A DNA stretch of 64,000 nucleotides. Origin: Anaeramoeba ignava BMAN. Taxonomy: Eukaryota > Protista > Anaeramoebae. Made by a program: the position numbers and the translations under genes. The stretch is from contig JAPDFW010000059.1 in NCBI GenBank assembly GCA_028826165.1, forward strand, positions 1,364,001-1,428,000. Reading direction: 5' to 3'. The stretch's first letter is position 1; each line of letters opens with the position of its first letter. Positions 345-59,338 of the stretch are shown here, piece after piece. The notes below the pieces were generated by a model. It was not told the origin of the DNA, did not search any database, and worked only from the letters and a program-made list of their open reading frames with translations.

Positions 345-3562
<3,218 letters not shown>

Positions 3563-3614: not shown

Positions 3615-4445
3615 AAATTGATTTAAAAATTGATTTAGAAATTGATTTAAAAATTAATTTAAAAATTGATTTAAAAATTGATTTAGATTTAAAAATTGAT
3701 TTAGAAATTGATTTAGATTTTGATTTAGAAATTAATTTTGAAATTGATTTGGGATTTGACTTGGGATTTGATTTTGATTCTGAAATTGATTTAAAAATTG
3801 ATTTAAAAATTGATTTAAAAATTGATTTAAAAATTGATTTAGAAATTGATTTTGAAATTGATTTTGGAAATTGATTTAGAAATTGATTTGGAAATTAATT
3901 TTGAAATTGATTTGGAATTTGATTTAGAAATTGATTTAGAAATTGATTTAGAAATTGATTTAGAAATTGATTTAGAAATTGATTTAGAAATTAATTTTGG
4001 AATTGACTTGGAATTTGACTTGGAATTTGATTTGGAAATTAATTTTGAAATTGATTTGGGATTTGACTTAGAATTTGATTTAGAAATTGATTTAGAAATT
4101 GATTTAGAAATTGATTTAGAAATTGATTTAGAAATTGATTTAGAAATTGATTTTGGAAATTGATTTAGAAATTGATTTGGAAATTAATTTTGAAATTGAC
4201 TTGGAATTTGACTTGTGATTTGGATTTGATTTTGACTTGGGATTTGACTTGGAATTTGACTTGGAATTTGACTTGGAATTTGACTTGGAATTTGACTTGG
4301 AATTTGAATTTGATTTTGGTTCTGAAATTGATTTTGATTCTGAAATTGAAATTGATTCTTGAAATTGAAATTGATCTTGAAATTGAAATTGATCTTGAAA
4401 TTGAAATTGATTCTGAAATTGAAATTGATCTTGAAATTGAAATGG
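3615..4445. repeat. 12-bp minisatellite (GAAATTGATTTA / GAATTTGACTTG variants); partly intergenic, partly the C-terminal tail of the ankyrin-BTB gene
   Basis: Directly visible; accounts for spurious ORFs 3846..4163 and 4172..4453. Confidence 0.9.
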
Positions 4446-7400: not shown

Positions 7401-7874
7401 ATTTCTAGAAGCAGAATGCAAAGGAGTTTCATTACCATTTGCTATATTATTCAAATCAGCTCCTTTTTCAACAAGTAATTTAATCACTTCAAATGAATTT
7501 TCATTTTGATATTTGCAAAGAAAATGCAAAGGAGTTTCACTATCATTTGTTATAATATTCAAATCAGCTCCTTTTTCAACAAGTAATTTTACAACATCAA
7601 GTGAAATTGAACTTGGATACTGACAAACTAAATGTAAAGGAGCTCGATATTCTAATTTTGGTGCTGCTGCATTTATTCTTCTTGTTGAAATTAAGAAATC
7701 AATTGAGTGATAATAATTTCTTTCATTTAAATTATAAGGAAAACGTTTTCTAAAATTCATCATTTCTATTTTTGTATCCGGATTCATTCCTAAATTAATT
7801 ATATATTTAATTTCTTCAAAAGAATTTTTTTGGAAAGCAAAATAAAATTTTTTCATTAATTCAATTTGATCCAT
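4140..7874 (-). CDS. Ankyrin-repeat (~22 repeats) protein with C-terminal tandem BTB/POZ domains; intronless, 1244 aa
   Basis: Repeated TPLHxAC...LLVEKGADVN ankyrin units, then SDLII...VHKLVLLTR and KDFKII...VHKLILILRSELFKGMF BTB cores; repeat-derived low-complexity tail. Confidence 0.92.
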   Translation of the reverse strand: MDQIELMKKFYFAFQKNSFEEIKYIINLGMNPDTKIEMMNFRKRFPYNLNERNYYHSIDFLISTRRINAAAPKLEYRAPLHLVCQYPSSISLDVVKLLVEKGADLNIITNDSETPLHFLCKYQNENSFEVIKLLVEKGADLNNIANGNETPLHSASRNGKSIEVIQFLIEKGADVNSQNNSEETPLHFACQNPKSIEIAKFLIEKGADINSPNRYRETPLHFLCRYQNENSFELVKFLIEKGAEINCKNSSQETPLHLACQNGRSIEIAKLLIEKGAEINVKSNSEETPLHFASKNPNSIELVKLLIENGADINAKNRYGQTYLYIDYDYSNQENSFEMTKFAIEKGFDFNSTTQDNGNLLHLICKKNPNPKPKSNPLEIVKLLIEKGIDVNSQTKEKETALHFACEKEDSFDIIQFLVEKGADVNIQVRYFQQSPLHLICEKQPENSFEIVKFLVEKGANVNSKRNHDLTPLHLICQKRDQNQNLNIFKIVEFLIEKGADLNAKTIYDETPLHFVCKTKPENSFEIVKLLVEKGADATIKTKDQETALHIACLHNSPIEVIKFLIEKGIDVNEKNKSQQTALHFAFYSRNPFETINLLVEKGADVNSKATNEQSILGVACQQNSPFEAIKLLVEKGAEINYKDKENNIPLHKACRDSNSFEVIQLLVEKGADVNAKNNYQQTPLDLACEYQKQKISFQVIKLLVENGADANNINKSNRGPLDLACAYQDSLDIIKILVENGADVNSQKYYNKTPLHFVCDYQRENSFEIVKYLVEKGADIFLKNSYQETPLHFACKNLKSSEIIQFLVEKGSDLSLKSNYGQNPISIILENNNEKAIQALLMNDLLGFDLMKDTRITKEFINIFPKVYSFNQDMKNLLESSESFSDLIIQSINSFKFQVHKLVLLTRFDNDDLILQKFINKCKQNSKKEEIEMALNFIYTGFLDFEEFKELFLNKSPDFPKQEQIEKWNKKQKQLEEFFKEIGIDSKWIEEKKGRKGLLKDFDKLYHQESTKDFKIIIEEKEVQVHKLILILRSELFKGMFELNVKDTSNQVHDYSRKSFETIEQFIYFLYHDEFEQTKEINHKILLELRDVKDYYQLNQNSIIDLFLRDLRKQEIESNQRIVNFNGNLVKLNNFVPDQFINPFQFQDQFQFQNQFQFQDQFQFQDQFQFQESISISESKSISEPKSNSNSKSNSKSNSKSNSKSNSKSNPKSKSNPNHKSNSKSISKLISKSISKSISKINF

Positions 7875-7958
7875 TTTAAAAAAAAAAATAAAAAGAAAAA
7901 AAATGAAAAAATTTTTGCTTTTTTTAATTTCGAAAAATCCAAAAAAAAAAAAAAAAAA

Positions 7959-15653: not shown

Positions 15654-15784
15654 TTTTTTTAAAAAAAAAATAATTAAAAAATTAAAAAGGAAAAAAATGA
15701 AAAAAAAAAAGCAAAAAAAAAAAAATTTTTAATTTAATATTTTTTTTTCATTTTTTTCTCTTCAAAACATTTATTAAATAAATA
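15654..15784. promoter_or_regulatory. 131-bp bidirectional promoter (Vps8 / cupin) with outward-facing TCATTTTT initiator motifs
   Basis: Minus-strand TCA at 15700-15698 and plus-strand TCA at 15748-15750, each in a T-rich tract 35-45 nt before its ATG. Confidence 0.65.
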
Positions 15785-16573
15785 ATGAAACTTGTTTTTT
15801 TCTTTTCATTTCTTTTTATTTTAACTTTTTTCAAAATTAACTCACTCAATCAATGTTCTCTTGGTGAATTTACAGGAAAAGCAAAAAACATATTATTTGA
15901 TGATTTAGTGAATTCACCAGAAATATTACAAGGGCAATTTGTATCATTTAAAGCATCAACAGGAGGAAAAGGAAGTTCAACTTGGTTACAATTAAAAAAA
16001 CCAAATAGTGAATTATTTGGAAGAAATTTCCAAGGAATCAATTACACATTTGCAGTTGGAAATGTTGTAATCACATCGCAAGATAAAGCTTTCTCATTCC
16101 CAACAGATATAAGATCTGATGTTGATGTTTATTTAGAAGGAACAGTTTCAAATATTTCAATTATTCTTCCTCAATTATCACCTTTAACACTAATTCAAGT
16201 TGAAGTTTCCGCAATTAATTTCACAAGTGAATCGCAGAGCTTGTGTCAATCTTGGTCAAACCAACCTATTACTCAAGACTTGCATAAAGGTGATATCCAC
16301 GGCGATAATGTTGGTGGTGGTCTTGTTTGTTTAGATCCTGGTAAAACTGAACCACTTCATACTACTTATCATTCAACGGAAGTTATCACAGGTATTTCGG
16401 GTGATGTTTGGTTAGGTCTAGAAAGAGGTGTTGGTACTTATCAATATATTCATATCACTTCTTTTTTTTCTGCTCTCGTTCCTCCAGCAACTCCTCATTA
16501 TGTTATCAATAATTCAACTCAACAAAGTTGTTATATTTTTGTTCATTCAATAGTGGATTCAACTTTTGATTAA
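15785..16573 (+). CDS. Secreted cupin-fold (RmlC-like) protein, 262 aa, intronless
   Basis: Hydrophobic signal peptide (MKLVFFFSFLFILTFFKINS). C-terminal cupin motif 1-like LDPGKTEPLHTTYHSTEVITGISG and motif 2-like ALVPPATPHYVIN. Confidence 0.7.
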   Translation: MKLVFFFSFLFILTFFKINSLNQCSLGEFTGKAKNILFDDLVNSPEILQGQFVSFKASTGGKGSSTWLQLKKPNSELFGRNFQGINYTFAVGNVVITSQDKAFSFPTDIRSDVDVYLEGTVSNISIILPQLSPLTLIQVEVSAINFTSESQSLCQSWSNQPITQDLHKGDIHGDNVGGGLVCLDPGKTEPLHTTYHSTEVITGISGDVWLGLERGVGTYQYIHITSFFSALVPPATPHYVINNSTQQSCYIFVHSIVDSTFD

Positions 16574-16781: not shown

Positions 16782-18364
16782 TTAAAACATTGCAGCATAA
16801 AGAATGCAATTAGCAAGAATTTTTCCACCATCAGTTGAATTAACCCAATAATGAGAATATTCCAGATCTGAAGGAGGATAAAAATTGATAACAACAACAT
16901 TTCCCCAATCTGGTTGAACTCTTTTTTCTGCAATCATTGGAGCATCATTATTATATCTAGCGATTAAATTACCAGATTCATGATTAATATTAACATAATA
17001 AGATCCTTCACCGTTATCAAAAGATTTAATATCTTGAAGAATAAAGTGTTTTTTATCTGATTTTTCAAGATCAAGAGTGACACGATTCCACATTGAAAAA
17101 ATTCCTTTTGAAAATGGAAGAAATTGATTTTCTGGTTTTTCCAATTCTCCCATAAGTTTTCCATCATAAATTGAATCTGTTGCAAGAAGCCAAACAGCTG
17201 AAAAAACAAGTCCTCTTCCTGTTTTAACATATTCTGCAAGAACATCTCCCATTTCTTTTTCTTTATATCTACTAAATCCTGAATAAAAGAATATGACATC
17301 ATAATCTAATAATGAATCTAAATCTGGAACTATTTCCATTGCATGAAAAACATCTATTTTGACTTTTTGTGCTCTTATTAAAGATAAAACATTTTGAATA
17401 CGAGTTTCTTTATGATGTGCACAAAGAAGAAGAGCAGAAACCTATCATAAGATAATAAATTTTCATATTAAATTTTCATATTAAATTTTCATATTAAATT
17501 TTCATATTAAATTTTCAATAAACAAACATCTTCCTTTTTTTTGGGTCTCACAAAAGGTGGGAATCTTCTTCGATTTGGAGTAGGATTCTTGCTTCTAATT
17601 GAAATTAAATTTTTCATTACTTTACTTTCCAAAAGTTTTGTTTTCTTCAACTCTTTCAATTCATTCGAATCAAAACAATTAAAACGAATCAAAGGAATTA
17701 ATTCAATTAAAGCTTCTTTAAGATTAGATTTATTAGGCTTGACCTTATTCAACTTGCAAACCCATTTCCCCCAATTATAAACAGATTGAAACAAAATAAA
17801 TTCTTTTGTTCGAAATGAATCCAAAGAAAGAATTTCTTTGATTGTATCTTGCATTCTTCCTTCTAAAATATTTGGATAATCTTGAAAAAGAGTTCGATGT
17901 GTTTGAATAAAACGAAGAATTATTTCCTTTGTTTCTTGATCCCCAAAAAAAATATTTGGATCTTCTAAATATTGAAAGCAATTCAAAGGCGTTAGCATTC
18001 CATACAAAAATTCCAAACAATCCTTTTTAAATTCTGATAAAAGATATTTATCCGAAACTTGAATCAATTGAAAAACTGTATTTGCGTTAATATTTTTCTC
18101 CCGAAAATAAACATAAAACATAATTGTTTCAAATATTTTGTAATCAATATCGGGAATATTCACAACTGCTACTGCTTTATTTGCTACTTCCTTCCATCCA
18201 AGTCCATAAAACATTTTCTTCCAAAAATCACTTGCTAATGATAATATTAATTTGTGTGCATAAAAAATTTTTTCTGTTTTTCCAACAATAAATTTAACAT
18301 CTGCGAATTTTCTTTGATTAAAAAGTTTTTTTAATGATTGAGTTAAATTGAGAGGATCACTCAT
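16782..18364 (-). CDS. BTB/POZ-BACK protein with a C-terminal alpha/beta (possibly class I glutamine-amidotransferase-like) domain; exons 18364-17528, 17441-16782
   Basis: ADVKFIVG...AHKLILSLASDFWKKMFY BTB; BACK-like EFILFQSVYNW...LIPLIRF; a GT..AG intron at 17527-17442 joins it in frame to YDVIFFYS...GDVLAEYVKTGRGLVF. The C-terminal fold is inference. Confidence 0.8.
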
Positions 18365-21978: not shown

Positions 21979-23727
21979 TCATAATTCAGATTTGGGGATT
22001 TGATTTGAATTTTGTGCTGTTATTTTAGCAAAATAACTCATTGAATAACCCAAATAAACAACTGCTTGACCTGCAGATAAACCGAACCACATTATAAGAT
22101 TACCAAAACGGGAGTTTCTAATTGAAGGTATACGAGTGACGTATATAACAGAAAACTGACCGAGCATTGAAGCAAACATATAAGGACGAATGAGTAAGAA
22201 AGACATCGAGATTATATATTCATGCCACAATGCAGAAACAAGAAAAACAAGAACAGTAGCACCTGCCTTTGGAACCTTCATATCCACCATCGAGTCTATG
22301 TATATATGGCGGAGAAACCATTCATAAACTAGACTGTTCCACTTGTTCCAAAACTGATCAAATGAGAGAGCATTCCACCAATCGTCATAGAATTTCCTAT
22401 CTGCAAACATGAAAATTTCCGCAATCAAATTAAGGAAGCAATGGAACACACCATAAAACATCGTTAGCCATGCAAACACTGTGGGAACTGCTAGCTTCAA
22501 AACTAACCGTCCAAAATTTTTTTCCCATGTTTCTTTAAAACCAGGAACCATAAAGTAATTTATATTTAAATAAGCAACAAATAAACTTCCAGACATTAAA
22601 AAAGAATATTTCAGTATTTTCATCCAGTCGCGTTTTTCTGTGCGCGGAAACTCCAGTTCGTAAACTAATGTTGGATATACTAAATACAATCCAAAATCTT
22701 TCAAATTAATATTACTTGGATATTTTTTTCCTTTTGTTTCTTCTTTTTTTTTCGTTTCTTGTTTCGTTCTTTATTTTTTCTGTTTGTGGATTTTTAGCTT
22801 TTTCTTTTTTGTTAATTTCTGCTTGTCTTTGTCTGTTACTAAAAAAGAATGAATGAGTTTTCATTAATAAAACTGCCATTTGCATTGTAATTGCTCCTCT
22901 TCCCACTATTTAAATTTTAATATTATAAATGAATTTTAATTTAATTTTAATTTTAATTTTGATTTTAATATTATAAATGAATTTTAATTTTAAATTTAAA
23001 TTTAATTTAATTTTAATTTTAATTTTAATTTTAATTTTAATTTTAATTTTAATTTTAATTTTAATTTTAATTTTAATTTTAATTTTAATTTTAATTTTAA
23101 TTTTAATTTTAATTTTAATTTTAATTTTAATTTTAAATTTAATTTATAAATGAATTTTAAATTGAATTTGTAAATTAACTGATTGAAAAATCAAATTTTA
23201 AAGCAAGATAAGTTGGGACAATAAAAAGAATAAACTGAGAAATTGAATAAAGAATGTAAGCAATTGTATTAGAAATATATTTTTTAACAATCAATATTTC
23301 AAGAAGAAGAATATTAGAACACCAACAAATCATAAGCTAAAAAAGAAGAAGAAAAAGAAAAAGAAAAAGAAAAAGAAAAAGAAAAAGAAAAATTTAGTAA
23401 AGTTTTTATGAAAAATTTTTTCTTTAATCTTTTAAAATTAAATTTAATTAAATTAATTACAAAAGAAATAACGAGAACAATATGTAAATTTCCAGTTAAA
23501 TATAAAAATAAACTCCAGTCAACAAAAGGTTCTCCTTTTTCAAAATTTGAAACGATTTTTTCAGCAAAAAGTAATATAACAATAACAATTGCTAAATTTT
23601 CAAGTCCAACTGAAAGTGTTTTTGGTCCTGGTTCATTTTCTATTAATGAATTTCTATTTTGTGGTGAATGTGTATGTCTTCTTGTTGTTTTTTGTTTTGA
23701 TTTATTATTTGTTGTTTTAGATTCCAT
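21979..23727 (-). CDS. MBOAT sterol O-acyltransferase / DGAT1-family enzyme; exons 23727-23461, 23336-23180, 22905-21979, with one apparent +1 frameshift at 22744-22752
   Basis: LLMKTHSF, YPSNINL..F...PTLVYELEFPRT, FHCFLNLIAE..FADRKFYDDWWN, WNSLVYEW, catalytic-His motif SALWHEY. Removing one base from the A9 run joins the frames. Confidence 0.88.
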
Positions 23728-23831
23728 TTTAAAAATAAAAATGAAAAGAAAAAAATGAAAATTAAAAAATAAAAATTAAATTGTTGTGAAAATTGTTTAT
23801 TAAAAAAAAAAAGTGGAATGAGTAAAAAAAA

Positions 23832-26800
23832 TTAATTTGTTTTTGATTTTTTAATTTCAAAAAAAGAATCATCAATATTATACTTTCCAAAATGATTTCT
23901 TATTGCAGAATTACTAAATTCATAATTTATTCCATTTGTTGTTATAACAAACAATCTGAAATTTGGATTAATAATTATTTTTCTTGATTCTTCTCCAAAA
24001 GATATGGTTACTAAAATATCACCATCTTTTTGAATATAATTTTGATTGAATAATTTATATAAAAATGGATAAATTTCTGGATAATCAAAAATAATAAGTT
24101 TTTTCCCATTTGTAATGCAAAATTCAACAATCATTAATTTTTCTTTTAATTCATCTTCTTTAGATTTCTTTAAAGTGGAAAATATTTTTGAAGAACTTAT
24201 TACAGTAGAATTATCATGAAAGAATTTATCATATAAAATTGTAAAAAATGAAGCATCTTGAATAGATAATAAAATATGTCTTAAAGATTTAGCAGATTCT
24301 AATCGATTTTGTTTTTCTTTTTTTGGTTTTAAATTTTCGGAAATTAATTCTTCAAAATTAATTTTTTTTTCTTTTCTAGGTATTTTAAATGGTAAATTTT
24401 CGAAAAATTCTGGGAAAGATTCTTGAGTAATTCCAAAATGTTTGAAAATTAATAATTTATAACCATTAAATAAATATGCAGATTCATCACTTTCAGAATA
24501 AATTGATTTGAAATCACGAATAAAAGCATAAACATCTCTGACATCATAAAAATTAGTTTCCAATTTTTGATTTTGGATTATTTGTGGAAATTGTTTTGAA
24601 ATGATCTTTTCTTGATTACTAAAAATATAAGAAATTTGTTCCTTTAAAAATCCACTAATTTCATCAGAAAATTGAATTAAAAGTTCTTCTATTGTTAGTT
24701 CAAATTCTTTAAAATTAAAATATTGATGATTTAAAACAAATCCACAAAATGGAAAATCAACAAAGGAATTTGATAATAAAATAATTGAAGGAAATGGTAA
24801 TAAATTCTCGTTTGGAAAATTATATTTTTCATTCAAAATAGTTTGTATTTGAGAATAAAGAACTTTTAAGGATTCATTTGATAAATTTGTAAATTCTTTA
24901 AAAATAAAAACAGGAATAACATCTCTTTGATTTTTTTGTAAATTTTTCATGCCATCTTGAAATTTTTTTTGAAGATATTCTTTTGATATTAATTCTGAAG
25001 AAATGATTTCAATTTTTTTTAAATAAGGAATTTTCATTTTTTGTAATTTAGGTTTTTGATTTGGATTAAATTTAAATAAATCGAAAATAATTTCCAAAGA
25101 AATTGTTTTTGAAGTTCCTAATAATATAAAACAAAATTAATAATTTAATAATTTAATATTTGTTTTTTTTTAAATATTCAAATTTTACCTGGTTTTCCGA
25201 TTATTAATAAAGGTATTTGAGAGAAACATGAAACCAAAATAAAAAGTATATTCTCCTTTAAGATTTTGTTTTTAACAATATCATTTTTGGATAAATCAAT
25301 TTCCAAGAAGTTAAATAAATTGGTTATAATTGTATTAAAATTTTCTTCAATATTGAATAATTTAATTTTTCTATTCATTTTAGATAATAATGAATCTCTT
25401 TTTTTTCCATCCAAATAATAAAAATAAACAAGAAAGAAACATAACGAAAACGTTAAATAAACTTTTTCTGATAAAGTATTTTCATTAGTAATAAATATTT
25501 CACCAATTGGATTGCATATTAACCATTGAAATACTCTTGTAAAAATTGAAACATCTTGATAAGATTCAAAATATTCATTAGGAAAAGTTGAATGTTTTTT
25601 AATGTGTTTTCTTGAATAGAAAATTATTTGTGATAATTCCTGTATTTGATAATGAAGGAATATAAATTCTGGAATTGGTTTGGAAATGTTTTGAAGAAGA
25701 ATTGCTTGAATAATTTTTAATTCATCCAAAGATGGAGAATTTCCAAAATCATATAAATCTTGGAAAAATGATTCAGGAATTATTTGAGGTAAAGAAATTA
25801 AATTATTATTATTATTCTGATCTTGAGGAATATTACTTGAAAAAGCAGATTTAAATGAAGCTAAGAAATGAATATTTTCTGGGATTGATTCTTGTTGAAT
25901 AACTCTATCAAGTAAAATTTTTTTGAATAAAATGATGCATTCTTTGGATGAACAATTGAAATTATGGAACCAAATATTGATTGTTGGTTTTGAATCCTTT
26001 TTGATAAATTGTTTGGCTTTTTCAATAACTTCAATAATATCTTCTTGTGTTGTTTGAGAATTAACATAATAGATAATAAGTTTTTGATTGAAAATATTTT
26101 TCAATAAATATTGGATAATTAATTTGGTTTCCACTTCATCTCCATCTATAAATATAACAGGAATATTCAAAGATAATTTAAAGATGATATAAATCATTTT
26201 GATTATATTGCTTTCTTGTATAAAAAAAGGATATTCTCCATTGTTAAATTTCTCAGGGAAATTTGAAAAAATATTTAATAATTGGGAATTTGTTGGATTA
26301 AATGATAAGAAAATATTTGAAACTTCTTTCAGAAAAATATCGACTAAATCTTGTGAAATTTCATAAAAAGTGATTAGATTTTGATCATTGATTTTTTTGA
26401 TAACTTTTGAATCAAAAATTGATTGTAAATTTATATTACTGATAAATAACGTTCTTAATTTTTCATTTTTTGAATCATTATTTTGCAAAAACAAAGGAAT
26501 GGATAATTGTTTGTCATTCCATTTAATTTTGTTACTTAATATTTTCCAAAAATGTTCTGATTCATTTGAATAATTATATTCTTCTTCTTTTTGATTCCAA
26601 TGAAGAAAACTTGAAATGATGTCAATAATTGAAGAAAAATAAACTTTCAATAATGATTCAATGAATAGTTTTTGTTCTTGTTGTTTTCCAGATTTAATTA
26701 TGTTTATAAAATTAGATAATAGTTCATTTTGTGATTTTAATATCACAATAAGATTTGAAAATAATCGGAAAGTTAAATTTTCATCAACAAGTTTTTCTGA

Positions 26801-29800
26801 AATTTTGTTTTTTAAAAAATTAAATAATTTGAGTTTGAATAGTTTTTTATCAGATTTTGTTATATCGGAATCTTGTAAATAATCTTTAAATGAATTAAAG
26901 AAGCTTTCAATACTTTTCCATTTTTCATCTTTTTTCTCCTCAATATTGAAATTATTTAAATGATATTTATTAAGAGAAAATATCTGTGAATCAACTTCCA
27001 TTTCGTTTCTTTCAAAAAAATATAATAGAGGGAAATGATCAAATTGACTTGAGATTTTTGTTTCTTTTTTACTTGATACTTCTAATGCTAAAAAATAAGA
27101 AGATGAATCAAAAATCCAGTTGAAATTTTGGGATAATTTTCTTTTAGATTCAATTGAACCCCACATAGAAAGAGTCCAAAGATAATCTAGAGTTTCTAAT
27201 TTAATTGAGAAAGGAAGTTCTATATGAATAAATTTGAAATGATTTTTGTGAGAATTAATTATAGAATAAATTGTATCAATAAATTCTTTTGTTGTTCCAT
27301 TCGAAATTACGAAATTATGATATGAAAATTTTTTCTTTAAATTTTTCTTTGAATTTTTCTTTGAATTTTCCTTTGAATTTTTCTTTAAATCAATAAATTT
27401 TTTGTATATTTGATAACTTTTCCCCATTCCAGGAAAATCAGAAGAAAATATCTGTAAATTTTCATGTAATTTTGTTTTAAAAATGATATGATCTATAAAA
27501 TTTTGAGGAATAACAAAGTCTTTATATGATATTAAAGATTTTTGGAAATGGTTTATAATTCTGAAACTTCCAATATAATTTTCATAATAAAAAATAACTA
27601 ATGGAAAATGTATTTTATATGAAATTTCTTGAATTTTTTTGTTGAGGAAATTTAAACATTCTGGATTTAGTTTATGTGAATGAATAATTGTGAAAATATA
27701 CTTTTGTTTATCATCGTTTTCTTCATAATTTTGATTGTAAATTTGATAAATAGAAAAGAATTTTTCAATATCATTTATCATTGTATTTTCTTGATTACAA
27801 ATCAAAACATTTTCTTTTAATGGGAAGTGATTGCAATAAACAAAATATAAACTTGTCACTATTTTATAAACTTTTTTTTCTTTTGGAATTTTGCAAAAGG
27901 AAATATTTAAAGGTTGTATTTCCTTATTTCCTTCAAGAATTTGAGTAATTTTTTTATTCTTTTTTGGCATATCTTTTTTGATAATTTTTGCACTTGGAAT
28001 TGAAATTTCTTTTGTTCTTTTTTTAATTGAATCTTTAATAGATAATTTAGATATATTTTGAGTAAAATTTTTTAATTTTGTTAAATTTGTCTCTTTTTTT
28101 GATGAACTTGTAAACAGTTTTCCAAATTTTTTTGGATTAAAATTAGGATAAAACGAAGAAAGAAGTGAAAGTGAATTTGATTCATCTTCCTTTTTTTTTG
28201 AAAAATAACCTTCAATAATTGAGGAAAATTGTTCTTGTGAAAAGAAAGATATTTGAAATGATTGAGGAAATTTAATAATTTTTTCCCATTCAGATAAATT
28301 TAATGAAAGTTCTTTTTCAAAATTATCTAATTTACTTTGAAAATCAGTTAATGAAGATTTATGTTTTTTTGAAGAATCTTTTGGTATTTGAACAAAATGT
28401 AAATTTTTTAATTTAATACTAATTTCTGCTATTTTTTCAATTTTTGAAAAATTTGTTTTAAAAATTTCAAGTTCTTTTTTGTATTCTTTTTTGGATATAA
28501 TATTATCATAAAATATATTAATTTCTAAAAAATCTTTAAAATTAAGTGATTTCTCTTGTTTTTGTTTTTCATTTTGATATAAAAATCCAAATTTTTCATT
28601 AGATGAATAAATGAAATGATAATTAGAACTTTCTTTTCCAAAAATTAAAGCTAAATTATTTAAGATTTTTTGTTCAGTTGATATTTTTTTCATTTTAAAT
28701 GATGAAAATTTGGAAAGAAATTTTTCTACTTCTTGATAATCAATTTCAATTTCTTTATCTTTTTCTTTTGAAATTGAACTTATTGCTAAATCAATCAATT
28801 TTTCAAAAGATTTAAATGGAGTTGTTTTATAAAGAAATTTCTTCATTTGTTCTCTTTTTTGTTTCAAAAATTTTTCTAATGACCTTCTACATTTTGTTGA
28901 ATTAAGGAAAATGATAAATTTTTCATCATTTGGGAAATTTATGAAAATTTCAAAAAGTTGAGAGAAATGATTTGAAAAACTTGATTCTAAAGTTTTAAAT
29001 TTTTCTGATAATGAATTAATTGTTTGATAGATCTCAACTATTTTATTAATTTCTTTTAAAGGTTGCTTTTTTCTCCAGTTTTCATTGAAAAAAATTGTAA
29101 TAAATTCATCTTTAAATTTAAAATGAGACAAAAACTTGAAAATGAATTGATTTTCTTGATTTTGTTGATTTTCAAATTTCATTTGCTTTATTTTCTTCAA
29201 TTTCCTTATTTTCATTTTGAATTTCTTTAATTTCTTTAATTTCATTTGCTTTATTTTCTTGAATTTTCTTGAATTTTTTATTTTCTTCAATTTCTTTATT
29301 TTCTTGAATTTCTTTATTTTCTTTTTTTATTTGAATTTGAAAAAGATTCTAATATTTCAAGTTCTTCTTTAAATAAACTAATATCTGTGAAATTTAAAAG
29401 TATTTGATCTATTTCTTCAAATGTTATTTCTTGATTAAAAATATAATCAAATTTTTCTTTAAATTTTTGGATCATAGTTTTTTGATAATTTGATATTTGA
29501 TTTAATTGATTAAAAATATCTTCTTCTGGGGTAATTTGAAAAAAAGTATCCAAAATATCCATTTTAAAAATTTTACTTTTTTGATAATTTAGGATAAATC
29601 CAATATTAGATTCCTTATCAATTTTTTTATCTTTAGTTTGCTTTTGTATTTCAGAAATTGAAATTTTAGAATTATTAAACATTTCAAAGATTTCATTAAT
29701 TTTTTGGATTTTTTGAATTTTTTGTTCATTTTGAGAATAATATCCTGATAAAATTTCAAATAATTGCTTTTGATTCTTTAATTCCTCATATAAATCTTGA

Positions 29801-32206
29801 TTATTTTTGTATTCTTCTGGAGAAAATTTTTCAAGACATTTCCAAAATGATTGATTAATTAAATTTTCAAGTTGAATGAAAGAATGATTATTTGTATCTT
29901 TGATATATTTTTGAAAATTTTCATATATTTTTTGAATTTCTTTTTTTAAATCTGAATTGGGAATTTGATTAAAAGATTTATCCAATTTAATTCTCCATTC
30001 TAAAATTAACTTTAAATTGTTATTATTAGTATCTTCTTTTTCTGGTTGCAAAATTGTTTTAATATCATCTGTAAATTTAATTTCTTTTATAGTATTTTCA
30101 AAAAGTTTAAATTGCATATATGATGGTATTGATTGAATAATCTTATCATTTTGAATAATTTTTTGTTTTGAAATAGTTTGAAATATGGATTGAATAAAAA
30201 GGAAAAAGTCATCAGCAATAAAATGAAAAAAAAATTTTAAGTATTTAAATGTATTTGGATCAAAAATAATTTCTAGTTTTTGTATTGAATCTTTTTCTGA
30301 AATAAATTTCTGCTTATAAAAATTTTCAAATATCACTTTTTGAAATGAAATTAATCTATTTTTTTGTTTTTTTTGTAAATTATTAAGTGTTTCTTGAGTA
30401 ATTTCTTGAAATTCATTTGGATCCAAACCATCGAGTATTTCTTGAAAGTCATTTGGATCCAAATCCTTAAATTGATCATGAAATTCTTTATCATTTACAT
30501 AATCACTTTCTGAAAAATCTTCATCTTCATAATAATCTTGATATAACTTATTATTAATTGTATTACCAAAATCAAACCAATATTCAATTTGTTGTTCTTG
30601 TTTATCATTGAAATAATATTCTGACCAATTCAAATTACCAAAAGTATTAATGTTTGTAAATTCTTCTTTGATTGATTTTTTTTCTTCATAATTATGCAAA
30701 GGGTAACATTTTATTTTAAGAAGAAATTTTCTCCAAAAATTATAAAATTCTTCCATTTTTGTAAATTGTAAATTTTTGAAAATTTGTGTAATGAATAAAT
30801 CAAATCGAGAATCAAGATAATCTTTAAATGCATCATTGAAAAAATTTTCAGAAAATAAACGTTTTAATTCTTGTGTTTTTGAATAAATTTTATCATCAAA
30901 AAAAAGATGTAAATTTTTGAATAAAAGCTCAAAATGTACTTTATCTAATTTATTTGATTTAATAAATGTATATATTTCTTGAGACATTTCTTCAGGTGAA
31001 AATTGAGAAAGTAAACTTTCTTTTTTTTCTCTTTGTATAAATCTTAGATAATCAGGAAGAAATAAAAAAAATTGTAAATTCCAAATTTTTTCATCAATTA
31101 TAAATAAGTTTGTAAATTTAATTCTAATTTGCTGATTTTCAAAAAAATCATTTTCATAAATAAAAAGAGCTAAATTTTTTGTGGAATTTTGGAATTTTTG
31201 GAAATAATTCTGAATTTTTGTTTTAAATTCTGACAAATATTTTTCTGAACAAAGACATGTCAAATAAAAGATAATACAATAATTTTTTTCCTAACATTTC
31301 ATTTAGAAATTTTGTTTTGAATGAAATTTGAAGAAAATCATCAATAACATCAGTAAAATTTATTTTTATTTCTTTTTTTTTTTCGATTATTTCTTTGTAG
31401 TTTTTGTCAATTTTCAAAATTTGATTTGTTAATTCTTGTTCAAGAATTTTTTCCATTTCACTTATTTTTTCTTTTTGTATATTTGGTTGAACATTTTCAT
31501 TTCCTTTTTGTATCTTTGGTTCGATACTTTCATTTTCTTTTGTTTTTTCTTTTTCTTCTTGATATCTGACTTTTGAAATTTCTTTTGTTTCTATGTTTTG
31601 TTTTTTAAAAATATTATGATTCATTAAGTTTCTTATTGAAATAGCAAAATTAAAAATAGACTCTTTTTCTTTTTCTTTAGAAGTAAATTCTTCAGAAAGA
31701 AATTCTTCAAAGCATGTATCAATCATTTCTGAAGCAATTTTTTTATAATCTTCTATTACTTTTGGAAATAAAAATAAAGTATTCTGTCGTAATAATTGTT
31801 GAACAGAAAATTGAAAAGATATTTTTGATAATTTAAGTTTTAGGTGAGTCTTAAATTTATTATATTTCAGGATTTTTTCAACATAAATAAAAATAATTTT
31901 AGGATGATATTGAATTTTTGGATTATCCCATGATTTTAAAATTGTTTTGATTCCTTTTCCAGTTGCTTTTTGAATTCCATTTGAAGTTGCTTTTTGAATT
32001 TCTTTTCCAATTTTGATTTTTGAATTTTGAATAAAAAAGAAAAATTGTATTTTTCTTTTTCTTTTGATTTTGATTTTGATTTTGATTTTGATTTTGATTT
32101 TGATTTTGATTTTGATTTTGATTTTGATTTTGATTTTGATTTTGATTTTGATTTTGATTTTGATTTTGATTTTGATTTTTTGTTTTTTTTGTTTTTTGTT
32201 TCTCAT
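23832..32206 (-). CDS. RNF213/mysterin-like giant AAA+ protein (~2,750 aa after reconstruction), lacking the C-terminal E3 module; intron 25188-25118; apparent +1 frameshifts near 31286, 29325 and 29175; start codon uncertain
   Basis: Collinear RNF213-like motifs: SSDFPGMGKS, IPVIFIDG (degenerate Walker A), IPLLIIGKPG|TSKT (Walker A rebuilt by splicing), RHILL, CITNGKKLII...LYKLFNQNY...INPNFRLFVI...IRNHFGKY (compare RNF213 CMETGKMVLL..LYDALNQYY..VHPNFRLIVI..LINRLEKH, quoted from memory). Confidence 0.75.
32064..32178. repeat. Perfect (TTTTGA)n hexamer at the 5' end of the RNF213-like gene
   Basis: Directly visible; reads as (KI)n or (QN)n depending on frame. Confidence 0.9.
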
Positions 32207-37860: not shown

Positions 37861-39649
37861 TTAATTTTGATTTTGATTATTAAATTTGTTAATTAATAAA
37901 TCAAATAAATTTGGATTTGTTTGATTTAATTGAAAATAATCAATTCCAGTTTCTAATTCATTAATGATTTCTTGTGTAATTTCAATTTCATCTTTAATTT
38001 GATTTGAATAAATCCAATATTCAAATATTTGAAATGATTTATTACTTAATTCACTATAATCTGTAACTTTATTAGAAGTATCTTCAGTTACAGATAAAAA
38101 CATTCCTCGATATAATTCACTTCTCATTATTAATATTAATTTAGGAAATTTATATTGTTTTTCTTTTCTTTCAATAATAAAATCTTTTTCATTTTCATTT
38201 TCATTTAAATAAATTCTTTTCATTGTTTCTTCTATTTTTTCATTTAAATTTATAATTTCTTTAATTTCAGAATATAATTTTGGATTTATTATTCTGTTTG
38301 AATAAATCATTTCAAATATTTGATTTGATTCTTTAATTGATTTTTTTGAAATAATTTCTTGAAGTTTTTCAATTTGATTTTCATTTTGATTTAATCTATA
38401 TTTCAATATTAATTTATGAGCTTCAATTATTTCTCCATTTTCGGTTTTAAATGAAATATTGCAAAATTCTTTTCTTCTAAATAATTTTATCAAATCTTCT
38501 TCAAGATTGGAAAAAGGAGGAGGAGAATAATAAAGAAATGATTTGTAAGATCCACAAAGAAACATGATAATTGGAAATATTTTCATTAAATCTTAATTTA
38601 GGAAGTTCAATTTGAATTGGAATTAATTGATTGTTTTTATCTCCAGTTCCTAATTGACCAGAATAGTTATTTCCAAATCCTATTAATTTTGAATTGGATG
38701 TTAAAATCAAAGTATGATTACTTCCAATAGAAATATCAAGAATATCATCATTTTCAAATAAAGATGATTTGATTTCAGTAAATTCATAAGTATGTTCATC
38801 TTCTTTTCCAAGTCCATTATATTGATAATCTCCACATGAATAAAGTTTTCTTTTTGGATTTTCATTTTCATTTTCAATCAACATTATTGAATGATAATAT
38901 CCAGTTTGAATATCAATTATTTTGCCTTTTGGAATATTTTGGATTTTGGTCAATTTTTGGATTTTTCTTTCTTCTATTGATTCTCCTAATCCAAGTTGAA
39001 CATAATCATTTAAACCGCAACAAAATAATTCTTGATTTGAATTTAAAAGAAAAATATGATAACAACAATTTCCTGAAAATATTTTAGAAACATTTTTCAT
39101 TATTAAAATTGGTTTTTCTGTTTCTTCAAGTGTTTTAGAATCAAAACCAAGTTGACCATATTCATTTGAACCAATTCCGTAAGCATTTTGATTTGAAGTT
39201 AATAAGTAAATTGAATAACACCCACAAACAACATCTTGAATTATTCTATCATTTGTATCTTCAATTAATGATGAAATATTGATAAATTCTTTTGGATTTT
39301 TTGGATTAATATCTATTCCTTTGGCAAATACATTTCCTTCTGATGTTAAAATAGCTTCATTTACATAGCCAGAAATGACTTTTTGAATATTTTCTTCAAT
39401 TTGGATTTTTGAAGGATTTCGCTTTGAATTATTTTCATTTGAATATTCTATTGCTTTTCCATTTTTAAAAAGGAAAATTGTTGAAAATCCTGATGATGAA
39501 ATTTGTTTAATTTGTTTTTCATTTTCATTTTCATTTTCATTTTCATTTTCATTTTCAAATTTAAATTGAATTGGTTTTGTTATTTTATTTGATTCATTTT
39601 TGATAAGTTTTGGATTTTGATTTTGACCAAAAAATATAATTTCATTCAT
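37861..39649 (-). CDS. RCC1-repeat + tandem BTB protein, copy A; intronless, one apparent +1 frameshift at 38556-38558
   Basis: RCC1 repeats (AYGIGSNEYGQLG, HTLILT..LIGFGNNYSGQLG). After removing one T the frame reads VSCGSYKSF and continues into BTB (AHKLILKYRL; KDFII..KLILIMRSELYRGMF). Confidence 0.82.
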
Positions 39650-39876
39650 TTTTGAAAAGAAAAAAAATGAAAAAAATGAATTTTAATTTTAATTTTAATT
39701 TTGATTTTGATTTTAATTTTAATTTTAATTTTAATTTTAATTTTAATTCTAAATTTTAATTTTGATTTTAATTTTTAATTTTGATTTTGATTTTAATTTT
39801 GATTTTAATTTTAATTTAAATTTTAATTTTAATTTTTATTTTAATTTTAATTTTAATTTTAATTTTAATTTTAATT

Positions 39877-41639
39877 TTAATTTTGATTATTAAATTTTTT
39901 AATTAATAAATCAAATAAATTTGGATTTGTTTGATTTAATTGAAAATAATCAATTCCTGTTTCTAATTCATCAATAATTTCTTGTGTAATTTCAATTTCA
40001 TCTTTAATTTGATTTGAATAAATCCAATATTCTAATATTTGAAATGATTTATTACTTAATTCACTATAATCTGTAACTTTATTAGAAGTATCATTTGTTA
40101 CAGATAAAAACATTCCTCGATATAATTCACTTCTCATTATTAATATTAATTTTGGAAATTTATATTGTTTTTCTTTTCTTTCAATTATAAAATCTTTTTC
40201 ATTTTCATTTTCATTTAAATAAATTCTTTTCATTGTTTCTTCTATTTTTTCATTTGAATTTATAATTTCTTTAATTTCAGAATATAATTTTGGATTTATT
40301 TTGGAATTATTTGAATAAATCATTTCAAATATTTGATTTGATTCTTTAATTGATTTTTTTGAAATAATTTCTTTAAGTTTTTCAATTTGATTTTGATTTT
40401 GATTTAATCTATATTTCAATATTAATTTATGAGCTTTGATTATTTCTCCATTTTCTGGTTTTAAATGAAATATCACAAAATTCTTTTCTTTCAAATAATT
40501 TTATCAAATCTTCTTCAAGACTTGATATTATAGGATAAAAAAGAATAGAATTATTTTCTCCACAAGAAAGATGATAATTGGAAATATTAAATAATAATTG
40601 AGGAAGTTCAATTTGAACAGGCAAATTTTTCCTTTTTGTATTCCCATTCCCTAATTGACCATATTCATTACTCCCAAATCCTATTAGTTTTCCACTTTCA
40701 GTTAAAATCAAAGTATGTCGAAAACCGTTTGCAATTTCAAGAATATTATCATTTTCAAATAATTTTATCCTCATTTCAGTGAATTCTCTTGTATTTTGGC
40801 TATTCTTCAGACTTTTTAATTCAAATAAACCACTAGAGTAAATTTTTCTTAATCCTGATTCTTGATCTTCAATCAACAACATTGAGCGTAATCCTCTTAA
40901 TTGAATATCAATTATTTTGCCTTTTGGAATATTTTGGATTTTTGGTTAATTGATTAACTTTTGCTTCTTTTATTGATTTCCCTAATCCGAGTTGACCAAA
41001 AAAATTATCACCGCAACAAAACAATTCTTGATTTGAATTTAAAATAAAAACACAATTTGAAAAATTTCCTGAAAATATTTTAGAAACATTTTTCATCATT
41101 AAAATTGGTTTTTCTGTTTTTTTAAGTGTTTCAGAATCACAAGAAAGTTGGCCATGATCATTAGAACCAATTCCATAAGCATTTTGATTTGAAGTTAATA
41201 AGTAAATTGTGTTTTTTCCAGAAACAACATCTTGAATTATTCTATCATTTGTATCTTCAATTAATAATGTGATTTCCTTATAAGTTCTTGAAATCTTTGT
41301 TTTGTATCGATTTTGTCTTATGAAAACTTGACCTTTTTCTGATAAAAGAGCCTCATTTTCAATTCCAACAGAAATTTTTTTAATTTTTGGAAATTTGAGT
41401 TTTTTTGGATCTAAACCAACAATAAATTGAATCACTTCTCCACTGATGAAAAGAACATTTGTGATAAATTTATTTGATGCAATTTGTTTTATTGGTTCTT
41501 CTTGTAAATTTACAGTTGTCATTTGATGTGGTTTTGTTATTTGATAAGGATCATCTGAAAAACGATTAAAGAAAGGATTTTGACCAAAAATCCAAATATC
41601 ATTTTTTTGATTAAAATTGAAGTTTGAATTCGAGTTCAT
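39877..41639 (-). CDS. RCC1-repeat + tandem BTB protein, copy B; intronless, apparent +1 frameshifts at 40939-40943 and ~40456 (possible pseudogene)
   Basis: Collinear with copy A; alignment to copy A places both extra bases (LTKIQNIPKG; SFKTENGEII). Confidence 0.78.
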
Positions 41640-46587: not shown

Positions 46588-49500
46588 TTAGAAGTCAGTT
46601 TCTTCAATACTTTGTAAATATAAATCTTTTTCAGTATTAACAGTTTCCATAACAATATCATCAATATTTCCTTGATCATTCATTTCATTTTCATTTTCAT
46701 TTTCATCAATATCATTAACTGAATAAACAGTAACTGATGGTGTTACTTTAACTACTTTTCTTTTTTTATACCAATAAAATGCAACTCCTCCAACAACTGC
46801 TAATGCTCCAAAACTTGTTCCAAGTCCTGCATATAATCCTGTTTTAGATGTTGTACTTGGTTCAGAATCTGTTTTAAAATAAAATTTATTACTCCAAATT
46901 GAATATCCAATTTCATTTGTTGATCTAACTTCAATAGAATAATTTGTTGATGAACTTAAATTTGCAACAACTCCACTATTAATTGTTGTAAATGTTTCAC
47001 TTGTTTCATTTTCATTTTCATTTTTGATTGATTTTATTTCATATTGAATTATTGATTCGGCATTAATTCTTGGTTTATTCCATTCAATACTTAATGAATT
47101 ATATGATTTTTTTGTATTATATAATTCTTTGATTTGTTCTGGAATTGTTTTATTGGTTTCAAATTGAAATGATTTACTCCATTCTCCAAAATATTCATTA
47201 ATTTCTGCTCGAACTTTAACTGAATAATTTGTAAATGGAATTAAATTATCAAATGAAAAAAGATCTGAAATGAAATTAGTTCGATTAAATCCTGTATCAA
47301 GAAGAACTGTATATGTTGTAATATCTGGATCATTTAAATTTTCCCATCCAATAACTGCTGAATATGATTCAAGATTTTTTAAGAATATTCCTTCAATTTG
47401 TGAAGGTGCAAATGTTTGTGTACTTATTGAAAAATTTGATGAATTTCCAAATCCAATTGAATTAAATGGAATTATTATTATTGTATAATTGGTTTGTGTT
47501 GTTAAATTATAAAATGATCCTTGATTTGTATTAACTTGAATTTGAATTGAATTTGTTGAATTGTTATCTTCAATACATGTAACATTATATCCTTCAATGT
47601 ATCTTCCTCCATTATTAGGTTCATTCCAACTTAAAATTAAATAAGTTCTTCTAATTTCGATTGGAATTAATTCTTCAACTTTAAATGGTACTTCTGCTGA
47701 ATATGTTGAGATGTTTTTATCTTCACTCCATTCATTACATTCTCCAATAGGATTAATTGCTTTCATTGAAATTGAATATTCTCCTGATATTAAATTACTA
47801 ATATTATATTCATTTTCTGTTGAATTAATTTCAATTTGTGTTGAATTTTGAATACTTAAATTGGAAAATCTATATGAAAGAATATAAGAAGTAATATTTA
47901 ATCCTCCATTGTTTGGTTTTTTCCAATTTACTTTGATTGATGTTGAACTTAATGTTGTTGCATTAACTTGTTCCATTTGTTTTGGTGTTGTTGGTTGTGA
48001 TGTTGATGCAATTAATGTTTCTGAATAATTTGATTGTCCAATTTCATTTATTGATGAAATTGAAATATCGAATGTTCCTGATAAAAGTGAATTAAATTGA
48101 TATTGATATTCACTTATTGGTGGTTCAATTTGAATATATTGTGTAATATTTGTTGAATATGGAGTAAATGAAAAAATATAATTGATTATTGTTCTTCCAT
48201 TATCATTTGGTTTATCCCATTTAATTGTAATTGAGGTTGATGTTGCTGAAATTTGAGTTAATCCTGTAATTATATCTGGAATATTTGGTGATAATGTATT
48301 CATTAAAACTAAAATTCCTTCTGATTCTCCAATAGAATTAATTGAATAAACTGTAATATTATAAGAATCTGAAAGTAAATTTGTTAAATTATATTCTGAT
48401 ACAACTTCATTTGTTGAAATATTTCCATTTGAACCATTAGAACTTAATCCTTTATATTCAATAATGAAATATAGAATTGGTTTACCTCCATTTGAAATTG
48501 GTTGATTCCAACTCATATAAATTGAAGTTGAAGTTGAATTAATAAATAAAAGATTTGAAATTGGAGAAGGTGAAGTTGGTTGTAAAGTTGAAAAAACAAT
48601 AACATCACTTGTTGCTCCTTCTCCATTTTGATTTGTTGCTGATATTTTGATACTATAATTTCCTGAATAAATATTATTAAGAACATAATCATTTATTGAA
48701 GGTGATGGATTTCCTTCTAAATCAATTAAAATTTCATTCCAAAATGTATCACTTGTTAATTTATAATATAAATTATAAGAAGTAATATCACTTCCTCCAT
48801 TTCCTGGTTTTTCCCATTCAATTCCTAATGATGTTGATGTTGAATTAATTAATGAAGGAATTGATATTTTATCTGGAATAGTTGAATCATCAGTTGAAAT
48901 TGTTGCAATATCACTCCAATAATAAGACCATCCAGCATCATTATATGCTTTGATTTCAAAATCATATGATGTTTCAGATTCAAGATCTCCAATAATACAA
49001 CTTAATGATGTATTCATTATATTAATTACATCTGTAAATATTGAATCATTACTTAATTTATATTGAATTTTATATGCTTTAACTTCATCTCCACCTTGAT
49101 CATTTGGAATAAACCATCCTAATGTTATTGAAGTTGGTGAACTTGAAATTTTATAAGGTTTATTCATAATTCCAGGAGGAGAAGGAGGATTAGTATTCAT
49201 TATAAATTCAGTTCCATTATTTGAAAATCCAACTGAATTATTTGATTGCATTTTGATTGTATAAGTTCCTGAAAGTAATGAAGTTAATGTATAATAAAGA
49301 TTTGTACTAAAAAGATCAATAGAGTAAAAATCTTCAGAAGGTGTTGAATTTTCATATTTATACCAAATTTTATATCCAATAATTGTTGAACCTCCATTTG
49401 ATGGTTTAATCCAAGAAATTGAAATTGATGAAGAAGTTTTTCCAGTTTGTGAAATTGAATTAACTGGTGATGGAATTGTTGATGGATCAGTTTCAATAGT

Positions 49501-52442: not shown

Positions 52443-53258
52443 TTCCTTTTAATTAATTTTTATTTTAATTTAGTTTTTTGTGAATTTAGTTGATTAAAAT
52501 TTTTGTTTTGGTTATTCTCTTTTTATTTTAAAATTTGAGAGTAAACAAAAAAAATGAAAAAAAAAGAAAAAAAAATAAATAAACAAAAAGAAAAAAAAAA
52601 GTGTCCAATTATCAAAAATTTCATAATAATTATTATTTTTTTTTTTCCAATTAAAAAATTTTATTTAAAAAAAAAAACAAAATTTGAAAAGAGAAAATAA
52701 ATAGAAAAGATTAAATTAAATAATTAATTTTGTTTATTTAAAATTAAAAGATCGAAAAAAAAAAGAATAATTAATTAATTTATTTAAATTTTAATTTATA
52801 AAAGAAAAAGAAAAAGAAAATTAAATAATTAAATAAATTAGTTTTAAAGAGATTAATTTTTAAAGGAATAATTAATAAAAATTTAATTTAAATTAATTTA
52901 ATTCATTTAAAAAAAAAAGTGGAATAAAATTTATTTTTTTATTTAAATTTTCCAAAAATAAAAAATTAAATAAAAATAATCAAAATAAATTTTAATTTTT
53001 AAATATCAAAAGAATAATTTGTTTATTTATTTATTTGTTTATTTATTTGTTTATTTGTTTAATCCAAAAATTATTTTTGAAATTAAAAAAAATTTAATTT
53101 TGTTATTTTTTTTGATTTTATTCTTTTTTTTTTGGAATTGATTGAAAAAGATTTGAAAAAAAGATTTGGAAAAAGATTGAAAAAAAGAAGAAAGATTTGG
53201 AAAAAATTGAATTAAATTTTGAAATTGAATTTTGTTTTGGAATTGTTGTTTTGATAAA

Positions 53259-59200: not shown

Positions 59201-59338
59201 AAATTTATAATTTGCTAATATTCTTTCTAATTTTATCACTTCTTCATTATTATTTGAATTTGTTTTTGAAGTTGAAATTGAAAATATTGTAAATATTAAA
59301 GTTATTCCAAAAAATATTATTAATTTTGGGTTTTTCAT
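53259..59338 (-). CDS. Type I membrane receptor/adhesin, copy 2; exons 59338-58873, 58036-57233, 56800-53259
   Basis: Same architecture and intron positions as copy 1. Confidence 0.88.

What the first reader, a model, noticed from the sequence alone, without database searches (positions are those of the whole stretch)
23832..32206. Mysterin/RNF213-like AAA+ protein with degenerate catalytic motifs and no E3 ligase half
Seen: four ORF fragments join into one ~2,750-aa protein with RNF213-order motifs. The first P-loop (PGMGKS, ~27415-27433) and the GKPGTSKT P-loop (only visible after removing intron 25188-25118) are intact. The Walker A/B pair between them is eroded (IPVIFIDGDEVETK; IWFHNFN), and the next Walker B reads FIFKEF. 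The gene stops right after the NPNFRLFVI..RNHFGKY module, 104 bp before the next gene. Established: animal RNF213 (~5,200 aa) couples this dynein-like AAA core to a C-terminal E3 module that ubiquitylates bacterial LPS and coats lipid droplets. Inference: a pseudo-ATPase sensor, decoy or scaffold form of a cell-autonomous immunity protein in a protist, possibly acting in trans with separate E3 adaptors.
Basis: partly seen in the sequence, partly recalled or inferred. Interest (0 to 1): 0.75.

Follow-up and report, generated by a model that had tools for sequence, protein, structure and literature searches.

The report
Truncated copy of enzyme-dead RNF213 relative
This is an amoeba relative of the human anti-bacterial protein RNF213 whose ATP-splitting sites are predicted to be dead across its whole subfamily, and the copy here stops early, likely because it is a cut-off duplicate of a longer, expressed twin gene.

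Summary
The motifs, the intron (25188-25118) and the stop 104 bp before the next gene are real. The gene is RNF213-family: its NCBI model is named rnf213 in Anaeramoeba ignava, 9 of 9 PDB sequence hits are RNF213, and Foldseek ranks RNF213 1-8, above dynein. It ends after the large half of AAA5, so AAA5-small, AAA6, hinge, E3 and CTD are all absent. The eroded motifs are not private. Five A. ignava paralogs form a clade (100/100) sharing them, and the one long member lacks the RZ catalytic Cys. The 'E3-less protein' reading is weakened. The stop junction is in DNA contigs, but a spliced-RNA run holds a contig matching the last 272 nt that then runs on, in frame, into 651 nt of other sequence; two DNA runs break at that same base. 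Best reading: a recent 3'-truncated duplicate of a longer expressed gene of a pseudo-ATPase RNF213 clade. One frameshift is absent from read contigs; the second junction is unbridged. New variant of a known kind; moderate interest.

The parts
31267..32206 (-). ORF1, 5' coding part (putative N-arm); start uncertain, 32060-32180 is an (AAAATC)n tract
   Evidence: no homology found; X5 RNA piece 31195-31351
31266..31266 (-). Frameshift between ORF1 and ORF2; base absent in read contigs of X1 and X5 (assembly error, or a difference between the two copies)
29317..31265 (-). ORF2, putative helical N-arm; no family or fold assigned
   Evidence: pLDDT 39; X5 RNA pieces 30127-30529
29173..29331 (-). 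E/N/K-rich coding repeat holding the unresolved ORF2/ORF3 junction
25189..29182 (-). First exon of database model P0001 (linker/AAA1 region by position, AAA2, AAA3, start of AAA4)
27416..27433 (-). AAA2 P-loop, Lys kept (structural ATP site in mouse RNF213)
   Evidence: PMC7311170 passages
26123..26164 (-). AAA3 Walker A, eroded: Gly before the Lys is Glu, Lys is Thr
25955..25975 (-). AAA3 Walker B, DE replaced by HN
25118..25188 (-). 71-nt GT..AG intron splitting the AAA4 Walker A
   Evidence: not spanned by a listed RNA contig
25104..25198 (-). AAA4 Walker A GKPGTSKT, intact across the intron
24891..24908 (-). AAA4 Walker B, Asp replaced by Lys (5 of 5 clade members)
23970..24047 (-). IR5-type insertion of AAA5L, an RNF213 signature
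   Evidence: PMC7311170 passages
23880..23900 (-). AAA5 arginine-finger box, Arg replaced by His
23840..23841 (-). Branch point: DNA contigs of X1 and X2 break here; RNA contig of X3 leaves the window sequence here and runs on for 651 nt
   Evidence: continuation not in the window
23832..23834 (-). Stop codon of the window copy, bridged by DNA contigs 23788-23870 (X1) and 23784-23870 (X2)
21979..23727 (-). Downstream neighbour, DGAT1-like MBOAT gene, spliced in X3 and X5; leaves no room for an E3 half at this locus

Best explanation
The window holds an RNF213-family gene that stops after AAA5-large and is likely a recent, 3'-truncated duplicate of a near-identical, longer, expressed twin elsewhere in the genome; both belong to an Anaeramoeba ignava clade predicted to be ATPase-dead. 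Shown: family, domain extent (AAA2, AAA3, AAA4, AAA5L), motif losses shared by five paralogs, the stop junction in DNA, and an RNA contig that continues past it. Inferred mechanism: in mammalian RNF213, ATP binding at AAA3/AAA4 switches on the RZ-finger E3 and hydrolysis drives coat formation on microbes. This clade has a Glu in the AAA3 P-loop, a Lys for the AAA4 Walker B Asp, no arginine fingers and, in its one long member, no RZ catalytic Cys. So the long forms would work as non-catalytic scaffolds or decoys: they would keep the fold and perhaps bound nucleotide at AAA2/AAA4, bind RNF213 targets, partners or antagonists, and not ubiquitylate (about 0.35 for that role). The window copy cannot close the six-domain ring and most likely has no selected function of its own.
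For: Family. Extent: match ends at mouse ~3134 while the AAA core runs to 3405; fold aligns to dynein AAA2-AAA5L. Clade 100/100. Motifs (5 clade rows, 23 non-Anaeramoeba rows, gaps not counted): AAA3 Walker A Gly is Glu in 4 of 4 vs Gly in 14 of 14; AAA4 Walker B Asp is Lys in 5 of 5 vs Asp in 14 of 17; AAA5 Arg finger 0 of 5 vs 22 of 22; AAA3 sensor II Arg 0 of 4 vs 17 of 17. Clade members keep 27-46% identity by region with long open frames, so the protein stayed under selection after the losses (inference). Paralog P0006 runs on 1,741 aa, matches the post-RZ E3 core (E 1.7e-12) and has Ser where the catalytic Cys sits (spacing from 10.1101/2021.05.10.443411). Twin: X3 is spliced RNA; its 923-nt contig matches 24112-23841 with 1 mismatch, then continues, its 10 visible codons open in frame; no GT donor there; not in the window. 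X1 and X2 contigs both start at 23841. The stop-form contigs run unbroken 50+ nt into the DGAT flank, against a same-locus allele. X1 and X2 (one sample) differ from each other at several sites and by a 24-nt indel, so at least two haplotypes exist.
Against: The twin rests on one RNA contig, of which only 30 letters were shown; ten open codons are weak alone; the DNA contig of the alternative branch was not among the rows shown. No protein for the twin in four searches, so it must be unassembled or unannotated. Its 651 nt were not shown to encode AAA5S/AAA6, nor to reach an E3. Contigs cannot show that the stop form is untranscribed. Two paralog models also end 37 and 32 aa after the same box, which could mean recurrent functional shortening. 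P0001 keeps the AAA2 Lys and the AAA4 Lys/Thr, sensor I and sensor II. No activity was measured; the decoy role has no direct evidence.
Confidence: 0.55

Rival explanations
1. The window copy is itself an expressed, selected short form: an N-arm plus AAA1-5L pseudo-ATPase acting as sensor, decoy or dominant-negative regulator of active RNF213 paralogs.
For: Stop junction solid in two DNA runs; 1,331-codon exon and last exon are open; RNA pieces along the gene; paralog models P0004 and P0005 end 37 and 32 aa after the same box vs 16 here; the cut falls at a domain edge.
Against: The only RNA contig reaching the exon end continues past it; RNA pieces cannot be assigned to either copy; the ends of P0004/P0005 are unverified, and unrelated metagenome fragments (P0011, P0024, P0032) also end 6-20 aa after this box, apparently at an intron; near-identity to the continuing form means too little time to show selection.
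Confidence: 0.2
2. One locus, two alleles or a mis-join: the continuing form is the intact allele here, and the window shows a deletion allele or an assembly join across a short repeat.
For: Heterozygous-looking sites also occur in the DGAT flank (23585); the two continuations begin with similar letters, as in microhomology deletions; the published A. ignava assembly is nanopore-based with ploidy unknown (PMC11550330); 23722-23783 was skipped by the read tool.
Against: Stop-form contigs pass unbroken from exon into flank, at the flank's depth in X1 (73.9 vs 73.3), with no merge point where a second allele would rejoin. A pure mis-join would need an exact 30-nt repeat.
Confidence: 0.13
3. The clade keeps a non-canonical active AAA4 site, the Walker B Lys standing in for Mg2+ coordination, so it is a slow switch and not a dead enzyme.
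For: AAA4 Walker A Lys/Arg 5 of 5, sensor I Asn 5 of 5, Walker B Glu 4 of 5, and the new Lys is invariant.
Against: Arg finger from AAA5 lost in 5 of 5, sensor II Arg kept in 1 of 5, P-loop glycines disturbed in P0004 and P0006.
Confidence: 0.1
4. It is a decayed dynein or midasin.
For: Structural similarity to dynein motors, Z about 20 (RNF213 chains were too long to be aligned there).
Against: 9 of 9 sequence hits and Foldseek ranks 1-8 are RNF213; IR5-type insertion present.
Confidence: 0.02

Closest known systems
Mammalian RNF213/mysterin (PDB 6TAX, 7OIK, 8S24, 9G08)
   Same: Order and fold of AAA2-AAA5L, AAA2 P-loop, AAA4 Walker A, IR5-type insertion.
   Different: AAA3 site wholly eroded, AAA4 Walker B Asp to Lys, no arginine fingers; window copy lacks AAA5S, AAA6, hinge, RING, RZ and CTD; no CBM20 detected in the N-terminal ORFs (weak tests).
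A. ignava paralogs KAJ5076909 (P0006), KAJ5066706 (P0004), KAJ5066620 (P0005), KAJ5067887 (P0007)
   Same: One clade with shared motif losses, 32-35% identity by BLASTP.
   Different: P0006 and P0007 continue past AAA5L; P0006 has an E3 core with a Cys-less RZ site; P0001 has the longest branch (1.93 vs 0.59-1.0).
Second A. ignava group (KAJ5079061/P0035, KAJ5067973/P0009, transcript P0008)
   Same: RNF213-like AAA4-AAA6.
   Different: Keeps the AAA5 Arg finger (3 of 3) and sensor II Arg where covered; its AAA3 and RZ state could not be read from the fragments.
Non-animal and invertebrate RNF213-like proteins (unnamed P0002, P0016, P0019; rotifer-rich Atlas clusters)
   Same: Family membership outside vertebrates.
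   Different: Canonical Walker motifs; most have a Pfam RZ finger, though P0003 and P0041 show no canonical RZ either, so E3 decay is not unique to Anaeramoeba.
Dynein motor domain
   Same: Tandem AAA fold, AAA2-AAA5L.
   Different: No sequence hit at E<=10; lower Foldseek rank.

Membership tests
RNF213/mysterin family (homology) | Best sequence and structure match is RNF213, tandem AAA units in RNF213 order | tested here: met
   9 of 9; ranks 1-8
RNF213/mysterin family (homology) | IR5 insertion in AAA5L | tested here: met
   aligned to the IR5 region, beta-hairpin in the model
RNF213/mysterin family (homology) | Non-catalytic AAA2 with Walker A | tested here: met
RNF213/mysterin family (homology) | N-arm with CBM20 and helical stalk | tested here: inconclusive
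   no sequence or Atlas hit for ORF1/ORF2; single-sequence model pLDDT 39
Functional RNF213 AAA-E3 enzyme | Catalytically competent AAA3 and AAA4 (Walker A, Walker B, sensors, Arg fingers) | tested here: not met
   (sequence only; no assay)
Functional RNF213 AAA-E3 enzyme | Complete six-unit AAA ring | tested here: not met
   window copy ends after AAA5L; open for the twin
Functional RNF213 AAA-E3 enzyme | E3 module with RZ finger catalytic Cys/His and CTD | tested here: not met
   absent at this locus; paralog P0006 has the module with Ser at the Cys position; unknown for the twin
Functional RNF213 AAA-E3 enzyme | ATP-activated ubiquitylation of LPS or proteins, coat formation | not testable with these tools
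   needs biochemistry
Dynein heavy chain / midasin | Closer match than RNF213 | tested here: not met
   dynein ranks from 9, no sequence hit; midasin is not among the 50 rows shown

The most novel reading that the evidence does not exclude
A. ignava, an amoeba that houses sulfate-reducing bacteria in a symbiosome, has turned a branch of RNF213 into an expanded set of enzyme-dead decoys (ATPase-dead, RZ-dead) and repeatedly cuts them off after AAA5L; the short forms are expressed and dampen ubiquitin coating of the symbionts or soak up bacterial anti-RNF213 effectors.
Probability: 0.12. Interest if true: 0.78.

Novelty: new variant of a known kind. Interest (0 to 1): 0.42.

Why it matters
RNF213 has been studied almost only in vertebrates, where ATP binding and the RZ finger are both required. 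A protist clade that kept the fold under selection while losing both activities would point to a non-enzymatic role of the scaffold (target binding, decoy, regulation) and offers natural inactive variants to test it, in a host that lives with bacterial symbionts.

Tried and rejected
No whole genome is held, so paralogs come from protein databases and their loci could not be read. Pfam: nothing above cut-off for the four ORFs. The 1,382-aa ORF alone: no PDB hit at E<=10. Searches for the twin's protein found only P0001 or distant relatives; word-based searches missed 35%-identical paralogs, so they only speak to near-identical proteins. The continuation's 30-mer is not in the window or in metagenome contigs. 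Splicing as the cause of the continuation rejected: no GT at the junction, no match in the window. Contig depth (gene body about 95-109, flank about 73 in X1) would fit an extra copy, but the tool warns it is no copy number: not used as evidence. No run was on record as RNA; X3 and X5 were recognised as RNA by a spliced junction. The intron 25188-25118 is not covered by a listed RNA contig: no evidence either way. Read-vs-window substitutions: 38 of 40 listed rows were coding (32 more not shown): 27 nonsynonymous, 10 synonymous, 1 stop that vanishes with the neighbouring change in its codon; this cannot tell assembly error from neutral drift. 'Three paralogs stop at the same place' not accepted as shown, since intron read-through gives the same pattern elsewhere. 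ORF2 model too poor for a fold search. P0035 RZ state: no significant match. DGAT1 adjacency and the lipid-droplet link: no synteny test possible, treated as chance. Earlier-findings look-ups empty.
Full report
Observation. The region is 80% A+T and holds four long minus-strand frames, 32311-31223, 31290-29314, 29326-25178 and 25136-23832. A database protein identical to the last two, P0001 (1,759 aa), is named 'e3 ubiquitin-protein ligase rnf213 [Anaeramoeba ignava]', KAJ5077185.1. Splicing out 25188-25118 (71 nt, GT..AG) from 29182 gives P0001 exactly.

Family. P0001 hits only RNF213 in the PDB (9 of 9 sequences at E<=10, best 5e-17). An AlphaFold2 model of residues 565-1759 from a 31-row alignment (pLDDT 71, pTM 0.67) ranks RNF213 1-8 in Foldseek (E 4e-38 to 2e-35) and dynein from rank 9. 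VIA-align could not take the over-long RNF213 chains and aligned the model to dynein AAA2-AAA5L at Z about 20. Residues 1-900 resemble AAA_5/AAA_7 clusters rich in rotifers (a lead only). ORF1 and ORF2 have no detectable relatives; their N-arm role is inferred from position.

Extent. In mouse RNF213 the AAA core spans 1775-3405, AAA2 binds a structural ATP, only AAA3 and AAA4 are catalytic, and IR5 is 3063-3103 (PMC7311170, passages). The match ends at about 3134 of the 5,161-residue mouse chain (numbering differs slightly). So the window copy carries IR5 and stops at the end of AAA5-large: AAA5-small, AAA6, hinge, E3 module and CTD are all missing.

Motifs. A search of 1.84 billion representatives with the last exon gave 32 hits. 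The six best after P0001 are A. ignava proteins. A tree of 35 rows, 230 columns (P0032, P0033, P0036-P0040 left out as short, duplicate or unrelated) groups P0001, P0004-P0007 at 100/100, with P0001 on the longest branch; four of the five have atypical composition, which can favour such grouping. Against 23 non-Anaeramoeba rows, gaps not counted: the Gly before the AAA3 Walker A Lys is Glu in 4 of 4 (Gly in 14 of 14 others); AAA3 sensor II Arg is lost in 4 of 4 (17 of 17 others keep it); AAA4 Walker B Asp is Lys in 5 of 5 (Asp in 14 of 17); the AAA5 Arg finger is lost in 5 of 5 (22 of 22 keep it). AAA3 sensor I Asn and the AAA3 and AAA4 Arg boxes are also gone. P0001 keeps the AAA2 Lys and the AAA4 Lys/Thr, sensor I and sensor II. 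The losses thus predate the clade's spread, and the proteins still share 27-46% identity by region. P0006 (2,641 aa, on a contig of the same length as P0001's) continues into a post-RZ E3 core (E 1.7e-12; weak pairwise). Its RZ-like site keeps C-x3-H and C-x2-C but has Ser at the catalytic Cys position and no downstream His (residue roles from 10.1101/2021.05.10.443411 and PMC12075652, passages); Pfam finds no RZ in it. Against uniqueness: unnamed P0003 and P0041 also show no canonical RZ.

Reads. Five coded runs hold the stretch, all as contigs. The frameshift at 31266 is absent in X1 and X5 and its removal opens 963 codons. The junction in the repeat 29173-29331 is not bridged. X1 and X2, one sample, carry different letters at several sites, so two haplotypes or copies exist. 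At the 3' end, DNA contigs 23788-23870 (X1) and 23784-23870 (X2) bridge the stop, so the truncated junction is real DNA; 23722-23783 was skipped by the tool. X3 and X5 are RNA: each has a contig joining 23461 to 23336 across an intron of the DGAT1-like gene. X5 has low-depth pieces along the whole RNF213-like gene. X3 has a 923-nt contig that matches 24112-23841 with one mismatch and then runs on for 651 other letters; the 30 shown read as ten open codons in the gene's frame. There is no GT at that place and the sequence is not in the window. X1 and X2 contigs both break at exactly 23841, as a graph does where two paths part. The stop-form contigs run on into the flank with no merge, which fits a second copy elsewhere better than a second allele here (inference). 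No protein for that copy was found, so it is probably collapsed or unannotated. This rests on one RNA contig, and contigs cannot show that the stop form is silent.

How it works. In mammals ATP binding at AAA3/AAA4 activates the E3 (PMC12075652) and binding plus hydrolysis is needed for coats on pathogens (PMC11549300, passages). A clade without these residues is predicted to do neither. Since it stayed under selection, the likeliest role is non-catalytic: binding targets, partners or antagonists as scaffold or decoy, beside a second A. ignava group that keeps the Arg finger. That role is inference only. The window copy, unable to close the ring and nearly identical to a continuing form, is best read as a recent truncated duplicate (0.55); an expressed short form (0.2), a same-locus allele or mis-join (0.13) and a non-canonical active AAA4 (0.1) remain.

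Literature. No paper in the library holds both RNF213 and Anaeramoeba. Searches on RNF213 with protist, evolution, paralog, amoeba or rotifer terms listed no survey of non-animal RNF213 (listings only, and three of these were swamped by unrelated papers; two searches were for the organism). The genome paper PMC11550330 (passages) reports symbiosomes, expanded gene families, nanopore assembly and unknown ploidy, and does not mention RNF213 in its text or in 11 of 15 supplements (four were not searched and may bear on this). PMC3963067 (passages) calls the gene likely conserved across vertebrates. Subscription papers are not covered. The database annotation already names the gene RNF213, so family membership is known; the clade-wide loss of catalysis was not found in print.

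Verdict. Observation largely real, interpretation partly supported. New variant of a known kind; interest 0.42.

Noticed in passing
window 46588-63536 (-): Three tandem near-identical genes, period about 6.7 kb, for large receptors with at least ten fibronectin-III repeats and a C-terminal hydrophobic segment; upstream exons look Cys-rich.
   Followed up: partly
window 37861-41639 (-): Two tandem RCC1-like beta-propeller plus BTB genes, each broken by an apparent frameshift between RCC1 and BTB parts: likely the same indel problem as in the target gene.
   Followed up: partly
window 4140-7958 (-) and 17507-18364 (-): Ankyrin-repeat plus BTB protein and a stand-alone BTB protein; BTB (cullin-3 adaptor type) genes are dense in this window.
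   Followed up: no
window 21979-23727 (-): DGAT1-like MBOAT directly downstream of the RNF213-like gene (E 3e-37); mammalian RNF213 acts on lipid droplets, but no synteny test was possible.
   Followed up: partly
window 31843-31882: An X1 contig differs from the window at 14 listed bases within 40 nt with no gap and stays in frame: a poor consensus patch or a converted tract between copies.
   Followed up: partly
window 27332-27355: 24-nt in-frame indel between X2 and the window in a short coding repeat just after the AAA2 P-loop.
   Followed up: no
window 15782-16573 (+) and 16782-17441 (-): Two small genes with weak cupin and ThuA-like matches below Pfam cut-off; possibly of bacterial type.
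   Followed up: no
protein P0002: Unnamed 3,566-aa RNF213-like protein with canonical Walker motifs, an RZ finger and a U-box (PF04564) where animals have the RING.
   Followed up: no
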